From a virus (Duplodnaviria > Heunggongvirae > Uroviricota > Caudoviricetes), in IMG/VR virus record IMGVR_UViG_3300029181_000068, positions 1-13,753 of that record: DNA of 13,753 bases. One strand, given 5' to 3'. This document shows positions 1 to 13,753 of the stretch, piece after piece. Position numbers and translations under genes: made by a program. Position 1 is the stretch's first letter, and every line of letters begins with the position of its first letter. The notes under the pieces are model-generated. The model was not told the origin of the DNA, did no database searches, and saw nothing but the letters and a program-made list of their open reading frames with translations.

Positions 1-1928
1 TTACTGACAATGCCGAGCTTCTCCAGCAACCAGGAAACGCCGGATTTCAGGGAGTCCAGCGGATGCATGACCATATTCAGCCCTTCCGCCAGTGCCTCCC
101 CGAATCGCCGCCCCATTGCCGCTGCGCTCTGCAGTTCGGCAGAGGTCGACTTAACGGGCGTCAGCAGATCAGTAAACCAGCCCCACAGCGCCTGCACTTT
201 GTCGCCAATCCACTGGAACACGGGCTTAAGCGGTTCGAACGCTGCACTGATGGGACCTGCCGCCGCTTTGAATCCTTCCACCACGCCACCGAGAAATGCG
301 GTGATGGGTTGCCAGTATTTCCAGACAACCAGCGCCACGCCCGCCAGAGCAGTAACCACAAGACCTATCGGACTGAGCAGAGCACCTAACAGACCAGATA
401 TGGCATACAGGGCAACGCGCAGCATCGCCAGTGGACCAGATGCCAGTACTCGCAGCACCGTGCCTGCGGCGGTCAGTCCACCGCGCAGTACCGCCAGAGG
501 ATTCATAAACATCACAGCAACAGCACGTAAACCGGATAATCCAGACCGCAAAAGTGCAACCGGCGCACCTGCTACAGTTTTCAGGACATTTCCCGTCAGT
601 GATGCCGTGCGGCGCAAAGACGACAACGGCGCAGTAAGTAAACCTGCGGCGTTGCCCGATGAAGCAAGCCCGCGTCGCAGCAGTGCCAGTGGTGCGCCAG
701 CCAGCCAGGACAACGCGCTGCTGGTTCGAGTTACTGCTGCCGTAACGGAAGATAACGTTTTGATACCCAACACAGAGAATCCCAGACGGATCACTGCCAG
801 CGGCCCCAGCACTGCAGCCAGCGCCACCGCTAAGGTGCCGAGGCCGACGGTAACCGCAGCCACAACAGCCGATGCTTTCATCAGTGTGCCTGTCAGTTCC
901 GGGTTAGCTTCCACCCAGCGACGCAACGCCCCCGTGACGCTTTTCACCGTGTACAGAATATCCATCAGCGGCTGGCGCAGCGTTTCGCCCAGGCTGCTGA
1001 AGGTGTTCTGCGCTCCGGTTTTGACCAGCAACCACTGCGCAGAAAGTGAATCCTTGTTAATGTCGGATTCTTTCTGCATGGAGCCAAGCGCATCATTGCC
1101 CGCTGTCAGTTTTAACTGACGCTGCAGTTCTGGCAGGTTGTTTGCCAGTTTCGCCGCGTCATCGCCAAACTCTTTACCAAACAACATAGTCATGGCAGAC
1201 AGGCGCTTGTCCTGCGGCAGCGCGTTTACCTTCTCCAGCACGCGCTGGATGGTTCCCATCGCATCCTTCGTCATCTGCTTTTCAATCACTTCAGGATTGA
1301 GTTTCAGCAGATTCATCCCTTCAAAGAAACTCTTGCTTTGCATGGTGGCAATGGACAATTCACGCACCATCGCGTTTGCTGCACTGGCTGCAACCTCTGG
1401 CGCAGCGCCCAGTGTCAGGAAGGTGGAACCCAGCGCCGCCGCTTTACGATAATCCAGACGGTCAGCCACACCGCCCAGACGTTGCATCACATCAATGATG
1501 TCTGCCCCTTTCGACATGGCGTTATCATCCAGATAGTTCAGCGCATCACCGAGCTGTTCAATATTGCGGGTGGGGATTTTGTAGAGCTGGGCGATTTTCC
1601 CCAGACTTTCTGACAGTTCATCCGCTGGCAGCTCAAAGGCTGTTGCCGCCTTTGCTGCCGTACTGGCGAAGGCCAGCAGGTCACGTTTCTGATCTTCCCA
1701 GCTGTCGTCAGGGTTTGCGACGTTCATGCGCGCACCACCTTCAACCAGTGCAGCGAAGTCCACCGCACCGTTTTCCATCGGCAACTGTTCGCTGGCAGCC
1801 TTGATGGCATCCTGCATTTCATAAAAACGTGCAGTGCGGTTGCCATTATCGTCACGCAGACCATTGACCTGCTTTGCCACACCTTTCATGGCATCTTCCA
1901 TGCTGGTATAGCTTTTTACTGCCGCCAT
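1..1928 (-). CDS. Phage tail tape measure protein-like (P2 gpT-type), partial: 3' end lies beyond the window start; 5' region probably missing and fused to truncated gene I
   Basis: Minus-strand frame is open from the stop at 2058-2060 down to position 3 and continues off the window, so it is absent from the ORF track. Hand-translated at both ends: ATG at 1928-1926 gives MAAVKSYTSMEDAMKGVAKQVNG; the left edge reads ...AAMGRRFGEALAEGLNMVMHPLDSLKSGVSWLLEKLGIVS. A quicker, unverified read of the middle suggests an Ala/Gly/Leu-rich product with long hydrophobic stretches, as in tape measure proteins. The + strand ORF 10..1119 is its Ser/Thr/Pro/Arg-rich antisense shadow. Family assignment is from memory, not a search. 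Confidence 0.55.
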   Translation of the reverse strand, partial: MAAVKSYTSMEDAMKGVAKQVNGLRDDNGNRTARFYEMQDAIKAASEQLPMENGAVDFAALVEGGARMNVANPDDSWEDQKRDLLAFASTAAKAATAFELPADELSESLGKIAQLYKIPTRNIEQLGDALNYLDDNAMSKGADIIDVMQRLGGVADRLDYRKAAALGSTFLTLGAAPEVAASAANAMVRELSIATMQSKSFFEGMNLLKLNPEVIEKQMTKDAMGTIQRVLEKVNALPQDKRLSAMTMLFGKEFGDDAAKLANNLPELQRQLKLTAGNDALGSMQKESDINKDSLSAQWLLVKTGAQNTFSSLGETLRQPLMDILYTVKSVTGALRRWVEANPELTGTLMKASAVVAAVTVGLGTLAVALAAVLGPLAVIRLGFSVLGIKTLSSVTAAVTRTSSALSWLAGAPLALLRRGLASSGNAAGLLTAPLSSLRRTASLTGNVLKTVAGAPVALLRSGLSGLRAVAVMFMNPLAVLRGGLTAAGTVLRVLASGPLAMLRVALYAISGLLGALLSPIGLVVTALAGVALVVWKYWQPITAFLGGVVEGFKAAAGPISAAFEPLKPVFQWIGDKVQALWGWFTDLLTPVKSTSAELQSAAAMGRRFGEALAEGLNMVMHPLDSLKSGVSWLLEKLGIVS

Positions 1929-3933: not shown

Positions 3934-4992
3934 TTACGCTCCGGTTTCTGCTGCTGCGGCGCTGAAGTCGCCAATCTGGATGTTTTCCACCAGTGCGGCG
4001 CAGCGGTAGTCCTCAACCACATAGGCTTCGTTAACGGATTCAAAGTTTTCAATCCGGTCACGTTTCGGGTTGTCGATAACTGAGCGGCGACGGGTGTCTT
4101 CCTGCCAGTAGATGGACAGGTTATCCAGACGGGTGATCAGCAGTGCATTCGGCGGGAAGAACGGCGCACGCACGGCCTGCAGGCCACCCATGCGTTTCTG
4201 ACTGATGATCATATCGGCAGCCAGTTTTTCACTGTTTTCCTGCTCTTTGTTGACCAGCGGGAAATACTTGTCAGACAGCAGTTCACGACCGCAAATCACC
4301 ACCAGATCGTCATCGTCCTGGTAGACCACATCGATAAGCTCATTGACGGCATCCATCACCACGGCGTCCAGGTTGGCATATTCGCCACCTTTCCCGACTT
4401 TCACCGCACCCGGTGTGGTTTCACCGCCCGTGGTGGTGCTGCCCATGACGTGATCCGGTGCATCTTCACGGATTTTCTGCAGCCAGCCTTTGTTCACATC
4501 CTGCAGCAGCGGGTTTTCGCTACGGTTGGAGGTTTTCGCACGCTTCACGCCGTTAAAGCCGATCATGATGCGGTCCAGAGCCTGACGTTTCACGATGGCG
4601 TCACGGATGCGCACCTGGAAATCCTGAAACTTCGCCCACAGGTCCAGCTTCGCGTAGGTCAGCACCGTGTCAAAGTTGGTCTGCTCGCATTTATATTCCA
4701 CATCGACCATCAGCGTCGGATCGACAGGTTCACGCTCTTTCGCGGTGGTGTCAGTGGTTCCGGCAATGGTGCTGCCAACTCCCAGCCCCAGCAGCTGACC
4801 GGACTGCTCAGTCACTGGCGTGACGTTAATCAGCGTCAGGAAAGCGGCGGACTGCTGGATCTGGTCTTCCAGCGTCTGCTGCACAGACGGCTCCACGGTG
4901 AACTTGCTGGACAGTTCTTCAACTGCCACACCGTTCAGACGCGCCAGCTGCTGCAGGTAAGCGTTAAAAGCAAAGCGGGTATTCTTCTTCAT
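3934..4992 (-). CDS. N: Major capsid protein, P2 gpN family
   Basis: 352-aa ORF. Near-collinear resemblance to P2 gpN as recalled (FNAYL...LNG, KFTVEPSV, IGFNGVKRA, NPLLQDVNKGWLQK, KVGKGG.YA.LDAVVMDA, DKYFPLVNKEQENSEKLAADMIISQKRMG, ENFES...YVVEDY). GGAG upstream of ATG 4992-4990. Confidence 0.95.
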   Translation of the reverse strand: MKKNTRFAFNAYLQQLARLNGVAVEELSSKFTVEPSVQQTLEDQIQQSAAFLTLINVTPVTEQSGQLLGLGVGSTIAGTTDTTAKEREPVDPTLMVDVEYKCEQTNFDTVLTYAKLDLWAKFQDFQVRIRDAIVKRQALDRIMIGFNGVKRAKTSNRSENPLLQDVNKGWLQKIREDAPDHVMGSTTTGGETTPGAVKVGKGGEYANLDAVVMDAVNELIDVVYQDDDDLVVICGRELLSDKYFPLVNKEQENSEKLAADMIISQKRMGGLQAVRAPFFPPNALLITRLDNLSIYWQEDTRRRSVIDNPKRDRIENFESVNEAYVVEDYRCAALVENIQIGDFSAAAAETGA

Positions 4993-5008: not shown

Positions 5009-5842
5009 TCAGCAATTGGTCAGAGTGTCAGCGGGGGCGTTACCGCCTGTTGCACGCTGGCGGTAGTCCTGGCGACTGTCTTCATGACTCAGCTTGTCCA
5101 CCAGTTCGTTAAAGGCGGTTTGCTGTGCCTGCAGGGCAGTCTCCAGCTCAGACAGGCGTTCTTCCTGCTCAGACAGGGATTTTTCGGTGCGTGCGCTCAG
5201 GTTCTGCTGCTCAGTGGCGACCAGCTCCACGGCCTTATGCACATCAGAGAACCGGGCGTCATCGGACTGCTCTTTTTTGGTAAACAGCGCCGTGACGCGG
5301 GCAAACAGGGACGGTTTGTCGTCCTGGATTTCTTCCAGTTCGATCACCGTTTCCTCTGCAGCGGTAAAGAGATTGGCAGGATTCTGCTTGCGGTTTGCCA
5401 GCGGGTTATGGGCTGCACTGGCGCTGAATGTCAGCATTTCCGTACCCAGACTGGCAGGGTCATCAGTGGCAGCCAGGCCGACCAGATAGGCTTTGCCCGT
5501 ATCAGCGAACTTCGGGCTGACTTCCATAGAGGTGAATAATTTCTGGCCTTTTTTCACCAGTTCCACCAGGGACTCCGTTGGCTCAACGTCGGCATACAGC
5601 GCCATCTTGCCTGCCAGCGGACCTTCCGTGATTTCTTCAGCAAACAGCGCCGTCACCTTGCCGTAGCGGTTAAAGGTGCTGTCCGGCAGATAAGACTTGA
5701 TGTGCTCAAGGTTAATCAGCGCGGTATACACCGCCGGGTTGTAGCTGGCTGCCATCTGTTCCAGCCATTCACGCTGGATTTCGCGTCCGTCGGTGGTGGC
5801 ACCTTCCACCCCGATGCGAAAACGCTTTGCTTTCACTGTCAT
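5009..5842 (-). CDS. O: Capsid scaffolding protein, P2 gpO family
   Basis: 277-aa ORF. Resembles P2 gpO (FRIGVEGATTDGREI, INLEHIKSYLPD, TSMEVSPKFADTGKAYLVGLAATDDPASLGTEML, ASDDARFSDVHKAV, C-terminal ATGG...TNC). GGAG 8 nt upstream of ATG 5842-5840. First gene of the leftward head operon. Confidence 0.95.
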   Translation of the reverse strand: MTVKAKRFRIGVEGATTDGREIQREWLEQMAASYNPAVYTALINLEHIKSYLPDSTFNRYGKVTALFAEEITEGPLAGKMALYADVEPTESLVELVKKGQKLFTSMEVSPKFADTGKAYLVGLAATDDPASLGTEMLTFSASAAHNPLANRKQNPANLFTAAEETVIELEEIQDDKPSLFARVTALFTKKEQSDDARFSDVHKAVELVATEQQNLSARTEKSLSEQEERLSELETALQAQQTAFNELVDKLSHEDSRQDYRQRATGGNAPADTLTNC

Positions 5843-5984: not shown

Positions 5985-7751
5985 ATGAACACCACACTGA
6001 CACCCGCAGATCTCGATCCCCGTCGGCAGGCCATGCTGCTGTACTTTCAGGGATACCGCGTAGCCCGCATTGCTGAAATGCTGGGCGAGAAAGTTGCAAC
6101 CGTTCACAGCTGGAAAAAACGCGACAAGTGGGGTGACTATGGGCCGCTGGATCAGATGCAGCTCACCACCGCCGCACGCTACTGCCAGCTCATTATGAAG
6201 GAGCACAAAGAAGGGAAAGATTTCAAAGAGATTGACCTGCTGGCGCGCCAGTCGGAGCGCCATGCGCGGATCGGCAAGTTTAACAATGGCGGCAACGAAG
6301 CCGACTTAAACCCTAACGTCGCCAACCGCAACAAAGGCCCGCGCCGTCAGCCGGAAAAGAACGTTTTCACCGATGAACAGATTGAGAAGCTGGAAGAAAT
6401 CTTTTATTCCTCCATGTTCAACTACCAGCGCCACTGGTGGGAAGCCGGAAAAACCAACCGCATCCGCAACCTGCTGAAGTCACGCCAGATCGGCGCGACC
6501 TTTTACTTTGCCCGTGAAGCCCTGATTGACGCCCTGCTTACCGGACGTAACCAGATTTTCCTTTCTGCCAGTAAGGCACAGGCGCACGTCTTTAAGCAGT
6601 ACATCATCGACTTTGCCAAAGAAGTTGAGGTGGAGCTGAAAGGCGATCCTATGGTGCTACCTAATGGCGCAGCATTGTACTTTCTCGGCACCAACGCCCG
6701 TACGGCGCAGAGCTACCACGGCAACCTGTACCTTGATGAATATTTCTGGATACCGAAATTCCAGGAACTGCGCAAAGTTGCCTCCGGGATGGCCATTCAC
6801 AAGAAATGGCGACAAACCTACTTTTCCACGCCGTCCAGCCTGACCCACAGTGCCTATCCGTTCTGGTCCGGTGCGCTGTTTAACCGGGGCCGCGCCAAAG
6901 CGGACAAGGTGGATATTGACCTGACCCACAGCAATCTTGCGCGCGGCCTGCTCTGCCCTGACGGACAGTACCGCCAGATAGTCACTGTGGAAGATGCGGT
7001 GCGCGGCGGCTGTAACCTGTTCGACCTCGACCAGTTGCGCATGGAGTACAGCCCGGACGAATACCAGAACCTGTTGATGTGCGAGTTTGTGGACGATCTC
7101 GCGTCCGTGTTTCCGCTCAGCGAGCTGCAGGCGTGCATGGTGGACAGTTGGGAAGTCTGGACCGACTTTCATGCACTGGCCCTGCGCCCGTTTGGCTGGC
7201 GCGAAGTCTGGATCGGATACGACCCGGCGAAAGGCACGCAAAACGGCGACAGCGCCGGATGCGTGGTGGTGGCACCGCCAGCCGTGCCGGGTGGTAAGTT
7301 CCGCATTCTTGAGCGTCACCAGTGGCGCGGGATGGACTTCCGCGCCCAGGCTGACGCCATCAAAAAACTGACCGAACAGTACAACGTGACCTATATCGGT
7401 ATCGACTCAACCGGCGTTGGTCACGGGGTTTACGAGAACGTGAAAGCGTTTTTTCCTGCCGTCCGGGAGTTTGTCTACAACCCCAACGTTAAAAACGCCC
7501 TGGTACTCAAGGCCTACGACATTATTAGCCACCGCCGCCTGGAGTTTGACGCAGGGCACACCGACATAGCGCAGTCCTTTATGGCAATCCGTCGCGCCAC
7601 CACTGCCAGCGGCAACCGCCCGACCTATGAAGCCAGCCGCAGCGAAGAAGCCAGCCACGCCGATCTGGCCTGGGCAACAATGCACGCACTGTTTAATGAA
7701 CCGCTGCAGGGCGAGTCCGCCAATACCAGCAATATTGTGGAGATTTTTTGA
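5985..7751 (+). CDS. P: Terminase large (ATPase) subunit, P2 gpP family
   Basis: 588-aa ORF; P2 gpP is ~590 aa. Resembles the P2 terminase ATPase subunit (MLLYFQGYRVARIAEMLGEK, KSRQIGATFYF Walker A-like, NLYLDEYFWIP, IGYDPA...GDSAG). Stop TGA at 7749-7751 overlaps the Q ATG. Confidence 0.95.
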   Translation: MNTTLTPADLDPRRQAMLLYFQGYRVARIAEMLGEKVATVHSWKKRDKWGDYGPLDQMQLTTAARYCQLIMKEHKEGKDFKEIDLLARQSERHARIGKFNNGGNEADLNPNVANRNKGPRRQPEKNVFTDEQIEKLEEIFYSSMFNYQRHWWEAGKTNRIRNLLKSRQIGATFYFAREALIDALLTGRNQIFLSASKAQAHVFKQYIIDFAKEVEVELKGDPMVLPNGAALYFLGTNARTAQSYHGNLYLDEYFWIPKFQELRKVASGMAIHKKWRQTYFSTPSSLTHSAYPFWSGALFNRGRAKADKVDIDLTHSNLARGLLCPDGQYRQIVTVEDAVRGGCNLFDLDQLRMEYSPDEYQNLLMCEFVDDLASVFPLSELQACMVDSWEVWTDFHALALRPFGWREVWIGYDPAKGTQNGDSAGCVVVAPPAVPGGKFRILERHQWRGMDFRAQADAIKKLTEQYNVTYIGIDSTGVGHGVYENVKAFFPAVREFVYNPNVKNALVLKAYDIISHRRLEFDAGHTDIAQSFMAIRRATTASGNRPTYEASRSEEASHADLAWATMHALFNEPLQGESANTSNIVEIF

Positions 7752-8776
7752 TGGGAAAGAGTAAGAAAAACCGCGCTGCGGCGACGAATCAGCTCAAGCA
7801 TAAAAGCCAAACTTCAGCCGAAGCATTCAGCTTTGGCGATCCCGTTCCTGTTCTGGACCGCCGTGAACTGCTGGACTATGTGGAATGCGTACAGATGGAT
7901 CGCTGGTATGAGCCGCCCGTCAGCTTTGACGGACTGGCACGAACCTTCCGCGCCGCCGTGCATCACAGCTCACCAATTGCGGTGAAATGCAACATTCTGA
8001 CCAGTACCTACATCCCTCACCCGCTGCTCAGCCAGCAGGCTTTTTCACGTTTTGTGCAGGACTATCTGGTATTTGGTAACGCCTACCTGGAGAAACGCAC
8101 GAACCGCTTCGGTGAAGTTATCGCCCTTGAGCCTGCTCTGGCAAAATACACCCGACGCGGGTTAGACCTGGATACCTACTGGTTTGTGCAATACGGTATG
8201 ACAACCCAGCCGTATCAGTTCACGAAAGGCAGCATTTTTCATCTGATGGAACCTGACATCAACCAGGAGATCTACGGCCTACCAGGTTATCTTTCTGCCA
8301 TTCCGTCAGCCCTGCTCAACGAGTCCGCCACGCTGTTCCGCCGGAAGTATTACATTAACGGCAGCCATGCAGGCTTCATCATGTACATGACCGATGCCGC
8401 GCAGAACCAGGAGGATGTGAACAACCTCCGCAATGCGATGAAAAGCGCCAAAGGCCCTGGCAACTTCCGCAACCTGTTTATGTACTCGCCTAACGGCAAA
8501 AAGGACGGGCTTCAGATCATCCCGTTGTCAGAAGTCGCGGCGAAGGATGAATTTCTGAACATCAAGAACGTCAGCCGTGATGACATGATGGCGGCACACC
8601 GCGTACCGCCTCAGATGATGGGAATTTTGCCGAATAATGTTGGGGGTTTTGGTGATGTGGAGAAGGCGAGCTGCGTCTTCGTAAGAAATGAACTATTACC
8701 ACTTCAAAAAAGATTCATGGAAATAAACAGATGGCTTGGTCATGAAATTATAAATTTTGAAATATATACATTATAA
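7751..8776 (+). CDS. Q: Portal (capsid portal vertex) protein, P2 gpQ family; last ~30 codons AT-rich
   Basis: The ORF track starts at TTG 7748; the likely start is ATG 7751 (MGKSKKNR...), overlapping the P stop as TGATG. 341 aa; P2 gpQ is ~344 aa. Portal-like throughout (GNAYLEKR, YWFVQYG, GLPGYLSAIPSALLNE, YYINGSHAGFIMYMTD, MMGILPNNVGGFGDVEKA). Codon usage turns AT-rich from ~8680 (AGA, CTA, TTA, ATA codons). Confidence 0.95.
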   Translation: MGKSKKNRAAATNQLKHKSQTSAEAFSFGDPVPVLDRRELLDYVECVQMDRWYEPPVSFDGLARTFRAAVHHSSPIAVKCNILTSTYIPHPLLSQQAFSRFVQDYLVFGNAYLEKRTNRFGEVIALEPALAKYTRRGLDLDTYWFVQYGMTTQPYQFTKGSIFHLMEPDINQEIYGLPGYLSAIPSALLNESATLFRRKYYINGSHAGFIMYMTDAAQNQEDVNNLRNAMKSAKGPGNFRNLFMYSPNGKKDGLQIIPLSEVAAKDEFLNIKNVSRDDMMAAHRVPPQMMGILPNNVGGFGDVEKASCVFVRNELLPLQKRFMEINRWLGHEIINFEIYTL

Positions 8777-8781
8777 AACCC

Positions 8782-8804
8782 AACGGCATCACAATGATGC
8801 CGTT
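8782..8804. terminator. Hairpin between convergent Q and the PIN-like gene; probable intrinsic terminator for the minus-strand gene
   Basis: AACGGCATC-acaat-GATGCCGTT: 9-bp perfect stem with a 5-nt loop. On the minus strand it is followed by GGGTTTTAT. No T-run follows it on the plus strand. Confidence 0.4.
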
Positions 8805-8813
8805 ATGAACGAA

Positions 8814-9875
8814 TTAATATTCAAAATTATTTTCTTCAATAGAGAACTCAATCCCTCGGGATAACTTATCAATATTCACATCAAATGCGATATCTGTTAA
8901 TTCACCATCCTCGATTTCATACATAACTTCAATTTCAATATCGAAACTAATCTCTTGAACTTCAGTTCGTGTGGTTGTCTCCATTGGAATCATTACTTTA
9001 TCTTCGCTATCCCAATACCCATTATTAAAGTCTGGACCAGAAACAGTAACTTCAAAATCTACAGAAACAGAGAAGGTCGCTAGACAATAATTATTGTCAA
9101 TCTTAATTATTGATGGTTCAAAGTCATCAATATTGACGACTTCAAATGAATCCAATTCAGCGTCTTCCCAAGTTGAAACGTTATATCCATCGGCATCATT
9201 GAGTTGGGCAATTACGTCCGCTCTTATGTCTTCACGTTTGCTTTCGATAAACTGCATCAATTTATTACTTAATTCGTTTGTATGCGTATTGTATTCACCT
9301 AGAAACTTATCAAGTGAATCAATTTGATGAAGATTGTTTTTACCATCACAATAATTTTTTAAGTCACTATCCTCAGAAATGATATACACATCTTCATCAT
9401 TAACAAATCGCTCTACCGCAGCTAAAGTGATTGCATCAGGAAACTCACTTTTTTTCTTATTTTGCCCAAATGGTGGTTCTTTGCCAAAGTATTTATCTAA
9501 AACCTCATTAAGATCTATCACTTCTATTGTAGCTAATTTGGCGTGACATCCTTTCAAAAAATCATCAAAAACTTTTTGTGCTGCTTCGTGAATTTCATGT
9601 TCGTTAAATTGCTGAAAAAAACCATGGAGCGGTCCATTATCAATACTATTCAAAAGCCTAGCTTTTCTTTGTACTGTGTTTATAGCCTGCAGAGCATCCT
9701 TTATTGATTCCTCTATTTTACCTTTTACTTCTCTCTCTACAACTGTAGTTGTAATTAAGACTAAATCACCTTTCGCACATAATTCATGGAAAGCTTTAAA
9801 TGCTACCCCCTCAAAATGAAGACCAGCCTTTACGTACGTTTGTGTGTCAATAAATACCTTATTTGTTTTAAGCAT
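8814..9875 (-). CDS. PIN-like nuclease-domain protein with an acidic C-terminal domain; candidate stand-alone defence or abortive-infection gene
   Basis: 353-aa ORF in AT-rich DNA. ATG 9875-9873 with AGGA 5 nt upstream. N-terminal ~170 aa carry PIN-like acidic motifs (KVFIDTQ; LVLITTTVVEREV; EFPDAITLAAVERFV; VYIISEDSDL). C-terminal ~150 aa are very Asp/Glu-rich with alternating hydrophobics (FDIEIEVMYEIEDGELTDIAFDVNID). Domain call is by motif pattern only. Confidence 0.7.
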   Translation of the reverse strand: MLKTNKVFIDTQTYVKAGLHFEGVAFKAFHELCAKGDLVLITTTVVEREVKGKIEESIKDALQAINTVQRKARLLNSIDNGPLHGFFQQFNEHEIHEAAQKVFDDFLKGCHAKLATIEVIDLNEVLDKYFGKEPPFGQNKKKSEFPDAITLAAVERFVNDEDVYIISEDSDLKNYCDGKNNLHQIDSLDKFLGEYNTHTNELSNKLMQFIESKREDIRADVIAQLNDADGYNVSTWEDAELDSFEVVNIDDFEPSIIKIDNNYCLATFSVSVDFEVTVSGPDFNNGYWDSEDKVMIPMETTTRTEVQEISFDIEIEVMYEIEDGELTDIAFDVNIDKLSRGIEFSIEENNFEY

Positions 9876-10001
9876 ACTAATCCTAATAAGTTTTAAGATC
9901 CGCTACAATTGTTTATGTTTATTTTTTATCAATAATCATACGTAGTTAAGATTATCCATGTCGAAAAATTAAATCAACTTCAATTTATCCTTAAGCGCGC
10001 G

Positions 10002-10020
10002 CTCGTATCCCCGCCACGCC
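10002..10020 (-). other. Candidate cos site (19-nt cohesive end, P2/186-like)
   Basis: Minus strand reads GGCGTGGCGGGGATACGAG followed by CGCGCGCTTAAGG. The P2 left end as I remember it is GGCGAGGCGGGGAAAGCAC then TGCGCGCTGACGG (about 24 of 32 matches; position 5 T as in phage 186). Orientation fits P2: cos, then Q and P transcribed toward cos. It is a GC-rich patch inside otherwise AT-rich accessory DNA. Confidence 0.5.
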
Positions 10021-10382
10021 TGCCCGCTTTATGTAGTGGTTTTCATGCACCTGCATGACATAAGCAAAAGCACGCCAGTTCTGGCTGACTTCAGCAAAAA
10101 CGATCCTCAAACGATCATGCGATCTCATGCGTCATAGTCATGCGCTGCCAAGGGAAGCGTAAATCCGTATCTGAATGACTGCTGAAAAGCGAATCATACG
10201 GGTTTACAAAGATGAAAGTTCGCTGTGAGCGAGAAGCGAACCTTGCAACTTTGTTGGCACAGTTTTAACACCAATTTTTTGAGGATAGCTAGAAAACTTG
10301 TGGCATAAAGGATCAGTTTCCCGATCGAACTTTTTATCAAGAAGGGCTCATAGCAATCGCCAGAAGAAGTGATGTTAAAGTA

Positions 10383-10411
10383 TTGAGCTCGGCGTTAAGA
10401 TTAAATAAATT
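10383..10411 (+). promoter_or_regulatory. Candidate sigma70-type promoter for the SIR2-HerA operon
   Basis: TTGAGC, 17-nt spacer, TAAATT, about 35 nt upstream of ATG 10445 (RBS AAGGA at 10435-10439). Weak match in AT-rich DNA; other candidates exist. Confidence 0.25.
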
Positions 10412-10444
10412 ACAGACTAATCCAATGTTTTGTGGAAGGATAAG

Positions 10445-11488
10445 ATGGCAGTCAAGCGCGCATACTACGGTAACGATAGTGACCGAGACTACTTAGAGCG
10501 GATATTTCAGTCAGCTAACATTAACTTTCTCATCGGATCAGGTGCATCCCTCCCAGCGATTAAAGTACTGGGGACAATCGAAACGGATCTTCAGCAGCTT
10601 ATTAATGATGAACAGGAAGATGAATACTTAAGGATGGCAGCTGACTTTTTGTCAGATGTTTGGCTACCTCATGAATGCATGTTGAAGCGCGGCTACGGCA
10701 CCCCCTTCGCACCTCAGGTGATCACCGATTTGGAATGTACCCGTGCAAATTATGATGCATTTATGTCTTCTCTGGAAAAGATACTGACCCGCCGCCGAAC
10801 TGGCCTACTTCCGAGGCGTATTAACGTTTTTACAACTAATTATGATTTATTCATCGAAGAAGCTGCCACACGTAATAACAATATTCTTTTTAATGATGGA
10901 TTCAATAGAAGAGCAAGTATTTTGGGAGATGCGGAATTTGATGCGGGTAGCTTTAATCATTCTGTAAGTGCAACCGGAAATCTGTATAATTATAAAGTTG
11001 AGCTTCCTACTGTTAACCTTATAAAACTTCATGGTTCGCTCTCTTGGCAGCATTCTAAAGGGAAAATCATTTATCGTATTGCAGATATTAAGCCGCTTGA
11101 CTTTCCCACCCTAGCCGAAATGAAAGGATGGGTACTTGCTCATGCACTTATTCTTCCACGTAAGGAGAAGTTTAAAGAGACTCTACTACAGAACGTTTAT
11201 TATGATTTACTGAGAACCTATTCCAACGAGCTTGATAAAGAAGCAACTTTACTAATTGTCTTTGGGTTCTCGTTTGCTGATGAGCACATTGAAACGATAA
11301 CTAAAAAAGCCCTGCGCAACGCCACCCTGAAGCTACTGATCTTTGCTTTCGATGAGGCCAGTGTTAACGGCTTTATGGAGAAATTTCGGGATTACTCAAA
11401 CGTAGAGATTATTTATCGGCCGGGAAGAAATGTTGATTTTCCGGTAATGAATAACATTATCACGTGCTATCTGGGAGGCTCGAGATGA
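10445..11488 (+). CDS. SIR2-like (sirtuin-fold) NAD-binding protein, defence-associated type
   Basis: ORF track starts at TTG 10430; the likely start is ATG 10445 (MAVKRAYYG...), 5 nt after AAGGA. 347 aa. Sirtuin-like motifs: Gly-rich loop FLIGSGAS (10532-10549), VFTTNYDLFIEEA (TQN-like) and IKLHGSLSW (catalytic His region). AT-rich codon usage. Stop TGA at 11486-11488 overlaps the HerA ATG. Confidence 0.9.
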   Translation: MAVKRAYYGNDSDRDYLERIFQSANINFLIGSGASLPAIKVLGTIETDLQQLINDEQEDEYLRMAADFLSDVWLPHECMLKRGYGTPFAPQVITDLECTRANYDAFMSSLEKILTRRRTGLLPRRINVFTTNYDLFIEEAATRNNNILFNDGFNRRASILGDAEFDAGSFNHSVSATGNLYNYKVELPTVNLIKLHGSLSWQHSKGKIIYRIADIKPLDFPTLAEMKGWVLAHALILPRKEKFKETLLQNVYYDLLRTYSNELDKEATLLIVFGFSFADEHIETITKKALRNATLKLLIFAFDEASVNGFMEKFRDYSNVEIIYRPGRNVDFPVMNNIITCYLGGSR

Positions 11489-13344
11489 GCAGGCATTTTA
11501 CTGAAGAGGAAGCGGTGCTCCGTATAGGCGAAGTCTGTGAGGTTTCTGGACGCGCTGTGACAATTTTGGTCGATAAAAACAAAAATCTCAGTGACTTGTT
11601 TTATCAGGGAAAAGTTCTAAGAAATGTATCAGTGGGTAGCTTCATTGAGATCAAAAAAGGTTTCATGAGCCTGATCGGCAAGGTTGAAGCGGAACGAATC
11701 ATTGAGGAAAAACATCTCGCTGGGAGCGGCAGTGATGCCTGGCGATATCGGCGATACCTGACCTCTACTCTTACGGGTTACATTGATCGTACTGGTTGCT
11801 TCATTGGTGGTTCGCGTGAACTACCTCTCATCGGCAATGAAGTCTTCGTGGTAACTGAAGAGATGATACAGACGGTTCATCAGATAGCTGATGCAGACGA
11901 AACTGTAATGAGGTTTACTCGTACAGATCTTGAAGATATTGAAATTGCACTACCAATCAATGGTCTTATTAATTCCCACATTGCCATTTTCGGTAATACA
12001 GGCAGCGGAAAGTCAAATACCCTAGCCGCGCTATACAAAGCAGGTATTGCCCAAGTTAAACATATTCTCGGCAACCACTTTAGTGAAAGATGCAAATTTA
12101 TTCTATTCGACTTTAATGGAGAATATACTGCCCCACGCTGTATTACTGACGAGAAGACGGTTTATAATCTCAACACGCACCATGCAAATGGTGACAAACT
12201 TCCTCTACCCAGAGAGGTTCTACTTGAGCATGATATGCTCTCAGTTCTAACCGATGCAACAGACAAAACACAGAAACCTTTCCTGAAGAGAGTTCTTGAG
12301 TTTCGCAAGAAAGTGATGACTGCTGATAATCCTCTTGAGTTTATGCGCAATATCCTGAAGAAAAAAGTCAGACAAAATCTCTTTAGTAGCGACAAACCCA
12401 AATGCGATACTATAAATCAGTTTCTTAGCCCAATTTTCAAAGATGACCCAGAACTTATATCTGATCTTGAGTATCATTCAACTGCATATAAATGGAAATT
12501 GAGGGGTGGTAGTATTTTCAATACAGAAGCTGATACTGAGCGCTCCTATCTATTCAGTCTTGCAAGCAATTTTTCATTTAAAACTGATATGATTGAAGAA
12601 CTGTTGGACTTTATGTACTTACAGTTAATACAGGAATATTTATCTAACAAGTCTAACCCTGAACATATTTCACCAGTTATAAATAGAATGAGTGCTAACC
12701 GTAAAGATATAGCCAAAATATTTGATACTTCCGGACAGTCTGACTTTTGGGGTGAACATAATTTCACGGTTGTGAATCTAAATATGGTTAATATAACCAT
12801 GAAAAAAACGCTTCCTCTTTTGATAGCCAAGTGGGCTTACAATATGAAGAAAATGTCTACAGAGAAATCTACACTGCACATCATTATAGATGAAGCCCAC
12901 AATATTTTGTCTAATACTTCTTTTCGGGAAACGGAAAGTTGGAGAGATTATCGTCTGGAAACTTTTGAGGAAATCATAAAGGAGGGGAGAAAATTTGGAG
13001 TTTTTATCACAATTTCCAGTCAACGCCCTAATGATATATCGTCGACAATCATATCCCAAGCACACAATTATTTTATTCATCGCCTTATTAATCAGAATGA
13101 TCTGTACGCAATTGAAAAATCAGTATCATATATAGATCGACTGACTGAAGAGTCGATTCCAACGCTATCTACAGGAACCTGTATTTTTAGTGGTATCGTC
13201 TGCCCCATGCCGCTCAAATTAAGGGTAGCTGAACTTCCAATTGAAGAAAAACCTAAGAGTAATACTATTTCCTTCAACGATTTAATACCTGAGAGGCTGG
13301 GAGAGGATGACCAGAGCGACTACGTAATAACCAGCCCTCACTAA
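11485..13344 (+). CDS. HerA-like (FtsK/HerA superfamily) ATPase, partner of the SIR2-like protein
   Basis: ORF track starts at GTG 11464 inside the SIR2 gene; the likely start is ATG 11485 (MSRHFTEEE...), with GGGAGG 6 nt upstream and an ATGA overlap with the SIR2 stop. 619 aa. Walker A FGNTGSGKSNT (11992-12015), Walker B LHIIIDEAH (12880-12900), and a downstream FITISSQRPNDIS motif. AT-rich. Confidence 0.9.
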   Translation: MSRHFTEEEAVLRIGEVCEVSGRAVTILVDKNKNLSDLFYQGKVLRNVSVGSFIEIKKGFMSLIGKVEAERIIEEKHLAGSGSDAWRYRRYLTSTLTGYIDRTGCFIGGSRELPLIGNEVFVVTEEMIQTVHQIADADETVMRFTRTDLEDIEIALPINGLINSHIAIFGNTGSGKSNTLAALYKAGIAQVKHILGNHFSERCKFILFDFNGEYTAPRCITDEKTVYNLNTHHANGDKLPLPREVLLEHDMLSVLTDATDKTQKPFLKRVLEFRKKVMTADNPLEFMRNILKKKVRQNLFSSDKPKCDTINQFLSPIFKDDPELISDLEYHSTAYKWKLRGGSIFNTEADTERSYLFSLASNFSFKTDMIEELLDFMYLQLIQEYLSNKSNPEHISPVINRMSANRKDIAKIFDTSGQSDFWGEHNFTVVNLNMVNITMKKTLPLLIAKWAYNMKKMSTEKSTLHIIIDEAHNILSNTSFRETESWRDYRLETFEEIIKEGRKFGVFITISSQRPNDISSTIISQAHNYFIHRLINQNDLYAIEKSVSYIDRLTEESIPTLSTGTCIFSGIVCPMPLKLRVAELPIEEKPKSNTISFNDLIPERLGEDDQSDYVITSPH

Positions 13345-13357
13345 TTAACAAAGTGCT

Positions 13358-13377
13358 GAAGCGGTAACGACCGCTTC
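13358..13377. terminator. Hairpin downstream of HerA; possible weak terminator
   Basis: GAAGCGGT-aacg-ACCGCTTC: 8-bp perfect stem, 14 nt after the HerA stop (TAA 13342-13344). No clean T-tract on either side. Confidence 0.3.
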
Positions 13378-13488
13378 TAGCACAAAGCGGACGATCACTT
13401 ATCAAAATGCCCGCCCACCTTACGCCTCGTTTCACTCGTTGCCCAAACTAGCCCCCATCAGAATGAATCCTCCTGGAGGCAACGTTTC

Positions 13489-13722
13489 TTAATGCAGCCA
13501 GCTGTCGTCTTCCCACACTTTCTGCATAATTTTCATCACTTGTTTTCTTTCTTCATCCAGTTGCAGTCCGGTCAGTTCCACACCGTTAGAGCTACCTTTG
13601 CGGATACGAATTACCGTTTTGGGATACAGGGGGCGCAGATTGCGGTAAAGCTCGGATTCAAGGGCGTCCAGGGTAGACTGGCTAATCTTCTGCTCTTTAT
13701 CGATCATTATTTCAATGCGCAT
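13489..13722 (-). CDS. DinI-like family protein
   Basis: Track ORF starts at ATG 13746; the likely start is ATG 13722-13720 (MRIEIMIDKEQ...), with GAGGTG 6 nt upstream. 77 aa. Resembles E. coli DinI (MRIEVTIAK..., ~81 aa) in length, N-terminus and acidic C-terminus (WEDDSW). Backbone-like GC content. Confidence 0.8.
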   Translation of the reverse strand: MRIEIMIDKEQKISQSTLDALESELYRNLRPLYPKTVIRIRKGSSNGVELTGLQLDEERKQVMKIMQKVWEDDSWLH

Positions 13723-13753
13723 AAAAGTCACCTCAACTGATGACATCCATTGA

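What the first reader, a model, noticed from the sequence alone, without database searches (positions are those of the whole stretch)
8660..8776. Recombination junction inside the 3' end of the portal gene
The protein stays portal-like to its end, but codon usage switches abruptly at ~8680. Upstream codons are GC-rich (ggt gat gtg gag aag gcg agc tgc gtc ttc); the last ~32 codons are AT-rich (gta aga aat gaa cta tta cca ctt caa aaa aga ... ata tat aca tta). This suggests the Q 3' end arrived with the AT-rich cargo by homologous recombination within Q from a lower-GC P2-like phage.
Basis: seen in the sequence. Interest (0 to 1): 0.5.

Follow-up and report, generated by a model that had tools for sequence, protein, structure and literature searches.

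The report
Defence-cassette boundary inside the portal gene
The last 31 codons of this P2-like prophage's portal gene are AT-rich because they are inherited as one block with the neighbouring anti-phage cargo gene, which shows that the known defence hotspot next to the packaging site reaches into an essential gene and is swapped by homologous recombination.

Summary
GC3 of portal gene Q drops from 0.65 to 0.13 at nt 8681 (support 8669-8694; Fisher p=1.7e-8; 0 of 2000 permutations).

The window is an E. coli P2-like prophage: P, Q, a PIN-domain gene, cos, SIR2-HerA, DinI. It is the known gpQ-cos-gpA defence hotspot.

- **Linkage to cargo.** In 5,426 complete E. coli genomes this tail (at least 99% identical) occurs in 36, the same 36 that carry the PIN gene. 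The next-best tails are 76% identical or less.
- **No-cargo controls.** P2, 186 and 7 other distinct prophages with nothing between Q and cos have GC-rich tails (GC3 0.55-0.90). In 54 cargo-bearing loci the median is 0.37, and tail GC3 tracks cargo GC (rho 0.68-0.74). Q-body GC3 does not.
- **Where the recent crossover lies.** It is at 8138-8253, not 8681. The other end of the shared block lies just past cos.
- **What 8681 is.** It is an older, innermost joint.
- **Donor.** No low-GC donor was found. P2-like Q genes from low-GC hosts still have GC3 of 0.43-0.55.

This is a fine-scale detail of a known hotspot and of moderate interest.

The parts
5985..7751 (+). Terminase large subunit gene P
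   Evidence: Pfam Terminase_6N, Terminase_6C and Terminase_5. GC3 is 0.71.
7751..8776 (+). Portal gene Q (341 aa from the ATG at 7751; the mechanical ORF starts at a TTG at 7748)
   Evidence: Pfam Phage_portal, E=1.2e-16. Annotated as portal in relatives.
7748..8137 (+). Backbone-type part of Q. It is close to 100% identical to the E. coli ETEC4089 prophage (DUF262 cargo) but only about 93-95% identical to PIN-bearing prophages. The block starts upstream in P, at about 7348.
   Evidence: Identity profiles and mismatch lists.
8138..8253 (+). Interval that holds the most recent detectable crossover inside Q
   Evidence: The last mismatch to PIN-bearing L085 is at 8137. After only 2 mismatches in 7748-8200, the next mismatch to the backbone relative L088 is at 8254.
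8254..8680 (+). GC-rich 3' body of Q that travels with the PIN cassette. Divergence from Q alleles carrying other cargo climbs from about 3% to about 23% towards 8680.
   Evidence: 99-100% identical to L085-L087. Mismatch density per 30-nt bin.
8681..8776 (+). AT-rich Q tail: the last 31 codons plus the stop (VRNELLPLQKRFMEINRWLGHEIINFEIYTL)
   Evidence: GC3 is 0.13 with the change point at 8681. At least 99% identical in exactly the 36 E. coli genomes that carry the PIN gene, and 76% or less elsewhere.
8781..8805 (.). Hairpin terminator between the convergent Q and PIN genes. Its T-run is on the minus strand, so it mainly ends the PIN transcript.
   Evidence: Terminator scan. The fold is -14.3 kcal/mol, z = -5.1.
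8814..9875 (-). Cargo 1: PIN-domain protein (353 aa), GC 0.34
   Evidence: Pfam PIN_12, E=1.5e-25. No PADLOC model matches. Annotated as a PIN domain-containing protein in RefSeq.
9876..9994 (-). AT-rich upstream region of the PIN gene, containing a promoter-like site (9964-9935). It is the right-hand end of cassette-specific DNA.
   Evidence: Promoter scan, a consensus match only. Homology to other P2-like phages starts only at about 9995 (BLAST starts at 9974-9995).
9995..10146 (.). Conserved cos block. The 19-nt cohesive-end equivalent is at about 10002-10020, inferred by alignment to the annotated P2 and 186 cos sites.
   Evidence: 86-93% identical across Klebsiella, Escherichia, Salmonella and Yersinia P2-like phages. 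Alignment to the P2 and 186 ends. The block shared with PIN-bearing prophages ends at 10031-10059.
10430..13344 (+). Cargo 2, on the other side of cos: the SIR2 (10430-11488) and HerA (11464-13344) defence pair
   Evidence: Pfam SIR2_2 and DUF87/HerA. PADLOC SIR2 E=6e-211 and HerA E=6e-267.
13489..13746 (-). DinI-like gene, the conserved far border of the hotspot
   Evidence: Pfam DinI, E=8e-23. The same gene follows the cargo in relatives.

Best explanation
The switch at 8681 is the inner edge of the swappable defence cassette that sits between portal gene Q and the cos site of P2-like prophages. The last 31 codons of Q, the terminator, the PIN gene and its upstream region (8681 to about 9994) are inherited as one block. 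That block, together with a variable length of the GC-rich Q body, moves between prophage backbones by homologous recombination. One crossover falls somewhere in Q (here 8138-8253) and the other at or just beyond cos (before 10031-10059). These steps are shown. The following steps are inferred. DNA closest to the non-homologous cargo can be exchanged only together with it, so it has the oldest linkage to the cargo. It has diverged until recombination can no longer start inside it, and it shares the AT-biased compositional history of the cassette pool. In this reading 8681 is an old recombination or gene-conversion joint between cassette-linked DNA and GC-rich backbone-type Q DNA. It is not the site of the latest transfer, and it need not have come from a low-GC phage.
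For: (1) Step change at 8681. (2) Complete linkage: the tail is at least 99% identical in 36 of 5,426 E. coli genomes, and these are the same 36 accessions that carry the PIN gene; all other tails are 76% identical or less. (3) Mosaic structure: 7748-8137 is close to 100% identical to L088 (DUF262 cargo) but about 95% to PIN-bearing L085-L087, whereas 8201-10030 is 99-100% identical to L085-L087 and 98%, 83% and 67% to L088 over successive segments. (4) PIN-bearing prophages carry different second cargo beyond cos (SIR2-HerA, DUF6236, DUF2971, a hypothetical protein), and their identity to the window ends at 10031-10059. (5) Mismatch density against Q alleles with other cargo climbs from 3% to 10-13%, 20%, 23% and then 30-43% towards the stop codon. 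(6) In the no-cargo controls (P2, 186 and 7 other distinct loci with 137-238 nt between Q and cos), tail GC3 is 0.55-0.90, against a median of 0.37 in 54 cargo-bearing loci (Mann-Whitney p=3e-5); body GC3 does not differ. (7) Tail GC3 follows the GC of downstream or cargo DNA (rho 0.74 and 0.68), while body GC3 does not (rho 0.03). (8) In 45 loci with a significant drop, the steps lie between -51 and +28 codons of V312, clustering at -20 to -14 and at -6 to +2, as expected from independent joints rather than a fixed property of Q. (9) AT pressure has reshaped the amino acids too: the FYMINK fraction against GC3 gives rho -0.69, which indicates long residence under AT bias.
Against: The cause of the AT-richness is not shown. 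The step is abrupt while divergence is graded, so a true import of an AT-rich Q end at 8681 cannot be excluded. Pairs of loci with homologous cargo have tails only slightly more alike (0.61-0.80) than pairs with unrelated cargo (0.63-0.66). One cargo family (S8 peptidase plus AAA ATPase, L089 and L007) sits next to both an AT-rich tail (GC3 0.16) and a GC-rich tail (0.71), so the linkage is broken over long times. Several cargo-bearing loci keep GC-rich tails (L007, L013, L029, L064). The loci are one per species but are not phylogenetically independent. Which sequence is the parent and which the recombinant in the 8138-8253 crossover cannot be told from three comparisons.
Confidence: 0.65

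Rival explanations
1. A single homologous crossover at about 8681 with a P2-like phage from a lower-GC host brought in the Q 3' end together with the AT-rich cargo.
For: The composition change is a sharp step, not a slope. The 150 nt just upstream are diverged yet still GC-rich, as expected if two different histories meet at 8681. The tail is a true Q homologue. Cargo and tail have matching composition.
Against: No donor was found. Among about 90 Q genes examined, none has a body GC3 below 0.43, including those from Arsenophonus and Mannheimia. The tail's amino acids are nearer to enterobacterial tails (58-71%) than to low-GC relatives (45-48%). The tail alone finds only 70.7% matches in the phage records and none in plasmids. 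A 40%-identical PIN homologue sits in an ICE without any Q gene and is equally AT-rich, so cargo AT-richness does not need a low-GC phage. The datable crossover in this lineage is at 8138-8253.
Confidence: 0.2
2. The AT-rich end is an intrinsic property of Q, such as relaxed constraint on the C-terminus or a DNA or RNA signal in the gene end, and is unrelated to the cargo.
For: The C-terminal extension varies in length (31-41 codons), and a few loci have stops or frameshifts there.
Against: All 9 distinct no-cargo controls, including P2 and 186, have GC-rich tails (GC3 0.55-0.90) with the same conserved motifs. Tail GC3 tracks cargo GC.
Confidence: 0.03
3. The cassette inserted by site-specific recombination into the end of Q and carries its own replacement gene end, as e14 and phage 21 do at icd and many islands do at tRNA genes.
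For: The gene end is replaced in frame by a diverged copy, which resembles those systems.
Against: The cassette holds one gene, a PIN-domain protein, and no integrase or recombinase. No displaced copy of the original Q end exists between 8777 and 10430 at protein or DNA level. Step positions differ among loci. Crossovers lie well inside homologous Q DNA.
Confidence: 0.03
4. The portal C-terminus and the defence cargo are functionally matched, for example so that the prophage's own portal does not trigger or is not blocked by its cargo. Selection would then keep particular tails with particular cargo.
For: Linkage is complete in E. coli. From general knowledge, portal proteins trigger some defence systems.
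Against: The amino-acid changes are those expected from AT pressure. Tails next to homologous cargo are barely more alike than tails next to unrelated cargo, and one cargo family sits next to very different tails. Physical adjacency alone explains the linkage.
Confidence: 0.05

Closest known systems
The cos-adjacent defence hotspot of P2-like phages between gpQ and gpA, the tin/old locus of P2 (Rousset et al. 2022, PMC9122126; NAR 2026, PMC13586616)
   Same: The position is the same: between portal gene Q and replication gene A, next to cos. The content varies among near-identical prophages. It carries defence genes (SIR2-HerA here). Turnover is rapid and unlinked from whole core genes.
   Different: Term searches of both papers found the hotspot defined only between whole genes, with no hit for GC content, AT-rich, breakpoint or mosaic, and the exchange mechanism left open. 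Here the left border lies inside Q, about 31 codons before the stop in this window and 0-50 codons in relatives. Crossovers are mapped in Q and next to cos. cos splits the locus into two sub-hotspots that reassort independently.
Mosaic joints of temperate phage genomes, as described for lambdoid phages by Hendrix and colleagues (from general knowledge, not checked here)
   Same: Sharp transitions in similarity and composition between modules with different histories, generated by recombination.
   Different: Such joints usually lie at gene borders. This one lies inside an essential structural gene and keeps the reading frame and the protein motifs.
Divergence gradients in genes flanking hypervariable loci, such as gnd next to the O-antigen cluster of E. 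coli (from general knowledge, not checked here)
   Same: Flanking core DNA hitchhikes with the variable locus. Divergence rises towards the locus because crossovers fall at variable distances from it.
   Different: Here the innermost flank has also shifted in base composition and amino-acid content. The scale is tens to hundreds of bases rather than kilobases.
Replacement gene ends carried by integrating elements, such as e14 and phage 21 at icd, or islands at tRNA genes (from general knowledge)
   Same: A diverged copy of a gene's 3' end replaces the original in frame.
   Different: There is no integrase, no displaced original end and no fixed joint position. This is a resemblance of outcome only.

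Membership tests
P2-like gpQ-cos-gpA defence hotspot | Lies between portal gene Q and replication gene A, adjacent to cos, in a P2-type late-gene layout | tested here: met
   N, O, P, Q and DinI were identified by Pfam. The cos block was found by homology to P2, 186 and Cartapus. Gene A follows DinI in relatives but lies outside the window.
P2-like gpQ-cos-gpA defence hotspot | Gene content differs among prophages with near-identical flanking core genes | tested here: met
   Downstream of similar Q genes the relatives carry AIPR, a retron-type RT, DUF4145, DUF262, or S8 peptidase plus AAA ATPase, against PIN here.
P2-like gpQ-cos-gpA defence hotspot | Carries anti-phage defence genes | tested here: inconclusive
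   SIR2 and HerA match PADLOC models at E=6e-211 and 6e-267. The PIN protein matches no PADLOC model and its function was not tested.
Homologous-recombination mosaic joint | Different relatives are the closest match on the two sides of a point, with homology continuing across it | tested here: met
   L088 is closest left of 8137 and L085-L087 are closest right of 8254. At 8681 identity to every allele outside the PIN lineage falls to 54-73% while the frame and motifs are kept.
Homologous-recombination mosaic joint | The composition step coincides with the crossover that created the present combination | tested here: not met
   The datable crossover is at 8138-8253. The step at 8681 is shared by all 36 PIN-bearing genomes.
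Import from a lower-GC P2-like phage | A P2-like Q gene exists with comparably low GC3 along its whole length and a related 3' end | tested here: not met
   The lowest body GC3 seen is 0.43 (Mannheimia PHL101) and 0.48 (Arsenophonus). Their tails are 45-48% identical in amino acids to this one. Only the samples held here were searched.
Site-specific insertion with a replacement gene end (e14/icd type) | A recombinase is encoded in the insert | tested here: not met
   The only sizeable ORF between Q and cos is the PIN-domain protein.
Site-specific insertion with a replacement gene end (e14/icd type) | The displaced original gene end is present at the far end of the insert | tested here: not met
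   72 Q C-termini were searched against 8777-10430 at protein and DNA level and gave only chance-level hits.

The most novel reading that the evidence does not exclude
The C-terminal 30-50 residues of the P2-type portal are not neutral passengers. They would be co-selected with the adjacent defence cargo, for instance so that a prophage's own portal escapes sensing or inhibition by the system it carries. Each cassette would then bring its own compatible portal end. The evidence here does not exclude this but gives it little support.
Probability: 0.05. Interest if true: 0.7.

Novelty: new member of a known kind. Interest (0 to 1): 0.35.

Why it matters
The two papers read here say that defence cassettes in P2-like phages turn over very fast, and they leave the exchange mechanism open. 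This locus gives sequence-level evidence for one. Exchange is by homologous recombination, with one crossover in the portal gene and the other at or next to cos. A core gene end is dragged along and marked by the cassette's base composition.

There are two practical consequences. Hotspot borders drawn at gene edges miss part of the swapped DNA. The AT-rich portal end could also serve as a simple marker for cargo-bearing P2-like prophages, and as a ruler for how long a cassette and its flank have been linked.

It does not reveal a new kind of system.

Tried and rejected
- **P2 cos sequence.** The 19-nt cohesive end of P2 was searched in the window with up to 3 mismatches and gave no match. The cos block was then located by homology; the core differs from P2 at 5 of 19 positions.
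- **Tail alone against the collections.** Against the phage records, 8660-8812 gave only 70.7% matches to another AT-rich Klebsiella phage tail. Against plasmids it gave nothing. No donor emerged.
- **Low-GC P2-like phages as donors.** Arsenophonus, Mannheimia PHL101 and Yersinia were examined. Their composition and similarity do not fit.
- **Replacement-end integration model.** Rejected: no recombinase and no displaced Q end.
- **Solved structures.** A sequence search for Q, meant to place the tail in the portal fold, found no match. Structure prediction was not run because it would not bear on the recombination question.
- **PADLOC for the PIN protein.** No match.
- **Tail as a tag for cargo family.** Tails next to homologous cargo in different genera are only weakly more alike than tails next to unrelated cargo. 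The tail is therefore not a stable tag of a cargo family over long times.

Full report
**What is in the window**

The window is part of a P2-like prophage. Pfam identifies the capsid gene N (3934-4992, minus strand), the scaffold gene O (5009-5842, minus strand), the terminase gene P (5985-7751), the portal gene Q (7751-8776) and a DinI-like gene (13489-13746, minus strand). Between Q and DinI lie three AT-rich genes:
- a PIN_12-domain gene (8814-9875, minus strand);
- a SIR2 gene (10430-11488);
- a HerA gene (11464-13344). The last two match PADLOC SIR2 and HerA models at E=6e-211 and 6e-267.

A block conserved among P2-like phages of Klebsiella, Escherichia, Salmonella and Yersinia lies at about 9995-10146. 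Aligned to the annotated ends of P2 and 186, it contains the cohesive-end equivalent at about 10002-10020. The order is therefore Q, cargo 1 (PIN), cos, cargo 2 (SIR2-HerA), DinI. The host is E. coli: Q plus the 36 bases after its stop codon (7748-8812) is 100% identical in ten complete chromosomes.

**Checking the observation**

GC3 of Q is 0.65 over codons 1-311 and 0.13 over the last 31 codons. The best change point is nt 8681, and a per-base analysis gives 8682 with a support interval of 8669-8694. Fisher p is 1.7e-8, and no permutation out of 2000 reaches the observed likelihood ratio. The tail (GC 0.25) matches the PIN gene (GC 0.34, GC3 0.25) and not P, O or N (GC3 0.66-0.71). The protein keeps the conserved C-terminal motifs (VRNEL.PLQ.R...N.W.G...I.F..Y.L) and is 65-71% identical there to P2, 186 and several other enterobacterial Q proteins (58-71% across all ten compared).

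**The tail goes with the cargo**

Four results show this.
- **Linkage in E. coli.** Among 5,426 complete genomes, a tail at least 99% identical occurs in 36, and the PIN gene at least 99% identical occurs in 36. The accession lists are the same. Every other Q tail is 76% identical or less. Nine viral contigs with the same PIN gene also carry a Q gene 98-99.7% identical in protein, full length, immediately beside it.
- **No-cargo controls.** P2 and 186 have only about 170-180 nt between Q and cos, and their tails have GC3 of 0.77 and 0.90. Eight loci from other species with 137-238 nt between Q and the cos block have tail GC3 of 0.55-0.84. After collapsing near-identical tails, 9 no-cargo tails have a median GC3 of 0.74 against 0.37 for 54 cargo-bearing tails (Mann-Whitney p=3e-5). 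The Q body does not differ between the groups (p=0.74).
- **Correlation across species.** Over 70 enterobacterial-type loci, tail GC3 correlates with the GC of the next 500 nt (rho 0.74). Within cargo-bearing loci it correlates with cargo GC (rho 0.68). Body GC3 does not correlate (rho 0.03).
- **Same feature with other cargo.** Klebsiella and Escherichia phages with AIPR, a retron-type RT, DUF4145, DUF262 or a peptidase-ATPase pair have their own diverged Q ends, most of them AT-poor in GC3 (0.16-0.45), starting in the same region.

**Where recombination happened**

Pairwise profiles show a clear mosaic. From about 7348 to 8137 the window is close to 100% identical to the prophage of E. coli ETEC4089 (L088, DUF262 cargo), with 2 mismatches in 7748-8200. 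Over 7748-8200 it is about 95% identical to the three PIN-bearing prophages fetched (L085-L087).

From 8138 onwards the window is 99-100% identical to those three, through the rest of Q, the tail, the PIN gene and cos. There are only three mismatches between 8138 and 10048 relative to L085. Identity to L088 over the same stretch falls to 98%, 83% and 67% in successive segments. The crossover separating these lineages therefore lies between 8138 and 8253, about 430-540 nt upstream of the composition step.

On the right, identity to the PIN-bearing prophages ends at 10031-10059, just past the cohesive-end position. Beyond that point each carries different cargo: DUF6236, DUF2971 or a hypothetical protein, against SIR2-HerA here. 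The unit exchanged is thus part of Q, the tail and PIN, up to cos. Its ends lie in two essential conserved sequences.

**What 8681 is**

Mismatch density against Q alleles with other cargo climbs towards the stop codon:
- about 3% at 8200-8530;
- 10-13% at 8531-8590;
- about 20% at 8591-8650;
- about 23% at 8651-8680;
- 30-43% in the tail.

This is the pattern expected when crossovers fall at variable distances from a non-homologous insert, so the nearest flank has the longest linkage to it. Composition behaves differently and changes as a step. The 150 nt before 8681 are 11-19% diverged from every allele outside the PIN lineage but are still GC-rich. So 8681 joins two stretches with different histories, which makes it an old joint. 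It is already fixed in all PIN-bearing prophages.

Across 45 loci with a significant drop, the step lies anywhere from -51 to +28 codons relative to V312, with clusters at -20 to -14 and at -6 to +2. The family average falls gradually over the last 50 or so codons, whereas no-cargo loci stay flat. The joints are therefore independent events and not a fixed property of Q.

**Where the AT-richness comes from**

This step is inferred.
- P2-like Q genes from low-GC hosts have GC3 of 0.43-0.55 in both body and tail (Mannheimia PHL101, Arsenophonus). Their tails are 45-48% identical in amino acids to this one, against 58-71% for enterobacterial tails.
- The tail alone finds only a 70.7% match in the phage records and nothing in plasmids.
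- A 40%-identical PIN homologue sits in an integrating conjugative element of E. coli MS1170. It has no Q gene next to it, and its GC is 0.36 inside 54-55% GC flanks. The cargo family is AT-rich wherever it resides and need not have arrived with a phage gene end.
- More distant PIN homologues (52-54% identical) sit next to Q in Pantoea-type viral contigs whose Q body has GC3 of 0.75-0.77 and whose tails have GC3 of 0.32-0.35.
- AT pressure has also changed the tail's amino acids. The FYMINK fraction is 0.39 against 0.26 in no-cargo tails, with rho -0.69 against GC3 across loci. That points to long residence under AT bias.

I therefore favour the view that the tail is an enterobacterial-type Q end that has long been locked to the cassette pool and shares its AT-biased regime. 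Gene conversion from GC-rich backbones would overwrite Q up to the point where homology fails. Import of an AT-rich end at 8681 remains possible, with a probability of about 0.2.

**Rejected alternatives**

- An intrinsic AT-rich Q end is contradicted by the no-cargo controls.
- Site-specific insertion with a replacement gene end, as at icd or tRNA genes, fails on two defining features. There is no recombinase in the insert, and there is no displaced Q end between 8777 and 10430.
- Functional matching of portal end and cargo is not excluded but has little support. Tails next to homologous cargo are 0.61-0.80 identical, against 0.63-0.66 for unrelated cargo. The peptidase-ATPase cargo sits next to both an AT-rich tail (L089, GC3 0.16) and a GC-rich tail (L007, GC3 0.71).

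**Comparison with what is known**

The locus is the defence hotspot of P2-like phages between gpQ and gpA next to cos, described by Rousset et al. 2022 (PMC9122126) and analysed at scale in NAR 2026 (PMC13586616). Rousset et al. speculate that cohesive ends plus a second homologous event exchange the locus. The 2026 paper reports almost no linkage between defence genes and whole core genes, and leaves the mechanism open. Term searches of both papers found no mention of base composition or of a border inside Q.

What is added here:
- the left border of the swapped DNA lies inside the portal gene;
- one crossover is mapped in Q and the other next to cos;
- the last 31 codons are in complete linkage with the cargo in E. 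coli;
- cos divides the locus into two independently reassorting halves.

This is a fine-scale detail of a known hotspot and a known process, phage mosaicism with hitchhiking of flanks. It is not a new kind of system.

**Verdict**

Novelty is a new member of a known kind. Interest is 0.35.

Noticed in passing
window 8777-9994 versus 10147-13488; loci L085, L086, L087: cos splits the hotspot into two halves that reassort independently. The same PIN cassette on the Q side is combined with SIR2-HerA (window), DUF6236, DUF2971 or a hypothetical protein on the far side.
   Followed up: partly
window 10020-10059: In three PIN-bearing prophages with different second cargo, identity to the window ends 11-39 nt past the inferred cohesive-end position (first mismatches at 10031, 10049 and 10059). 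This fits the published speculation that cos ends take part in exchange, but also fits ordinary crossovers within the conserved cos block.
   Followed up: partly
L107:3793-4863 (E. coli MS1170 chromosome): A 40%-identical homologue of the PIN cargo protein lies inside an integrating conjugative element. It is AT-rich (GC 0.36) within 54-55% GC flanks and has no phage genes nearby.
   Followed up: partly
Q C-termini of window and L001-L091: AT-rich tails are shorter (median 32 codons after V312) than GC-rich tails (median 36). They lack the acidic C-terminal extension seen in P2 (DTDND), 186 (DNPE) and no-cargo loci. Length against GC3 gives rho 0.61.
   Followed up: partly
L044, L068, L038, L061 (Q 3' ends): Some loci have an in-frame stop (L044, L068), a 65-codon aberrant end (L038) or a truncated match (L061) in the Q tail, which suggests decaying prophages.
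   Followed up: no
L085:3784-5004 and L089:1736-5004: Several E. coli prophages that keep Q plus cargo are remnants. In L085 a truncated terminase gene abuts a truncated gpD gene. In L089 the tail sheath and terminase genes are pseudogenes. The Q-cargo-cos segment outlives the rest of the phage.
   Followed up: no
window 10002-10020: The inferred 19-nt cohesive-end sequence differs from that of P2 at 5 positions, and a search with the P2 sequence at up to 3 mismatches finds nothing. It is identical in the aligned E. coli, Klebsiella, Cartapus and Enterobacter relatives.
   Followed up: partly
window 8814-9875 (minus strand): The PIN_12-domain cargo protein matches no PADLOC 2.0 model, although it occupies a defence hotspot in 36 E. 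coli genomes and has 52-54% identical homologues at the same position in Pantoea-type viral contigs. It is a candidate single-gene defence or toxin module of untested function.
   Followed up: partly
window 10-1119 (plus strand): A 369-aa ORF at the left end of the window has no Pfam match at E of 0.001 or below. It was not examined further.
   Followed up: no
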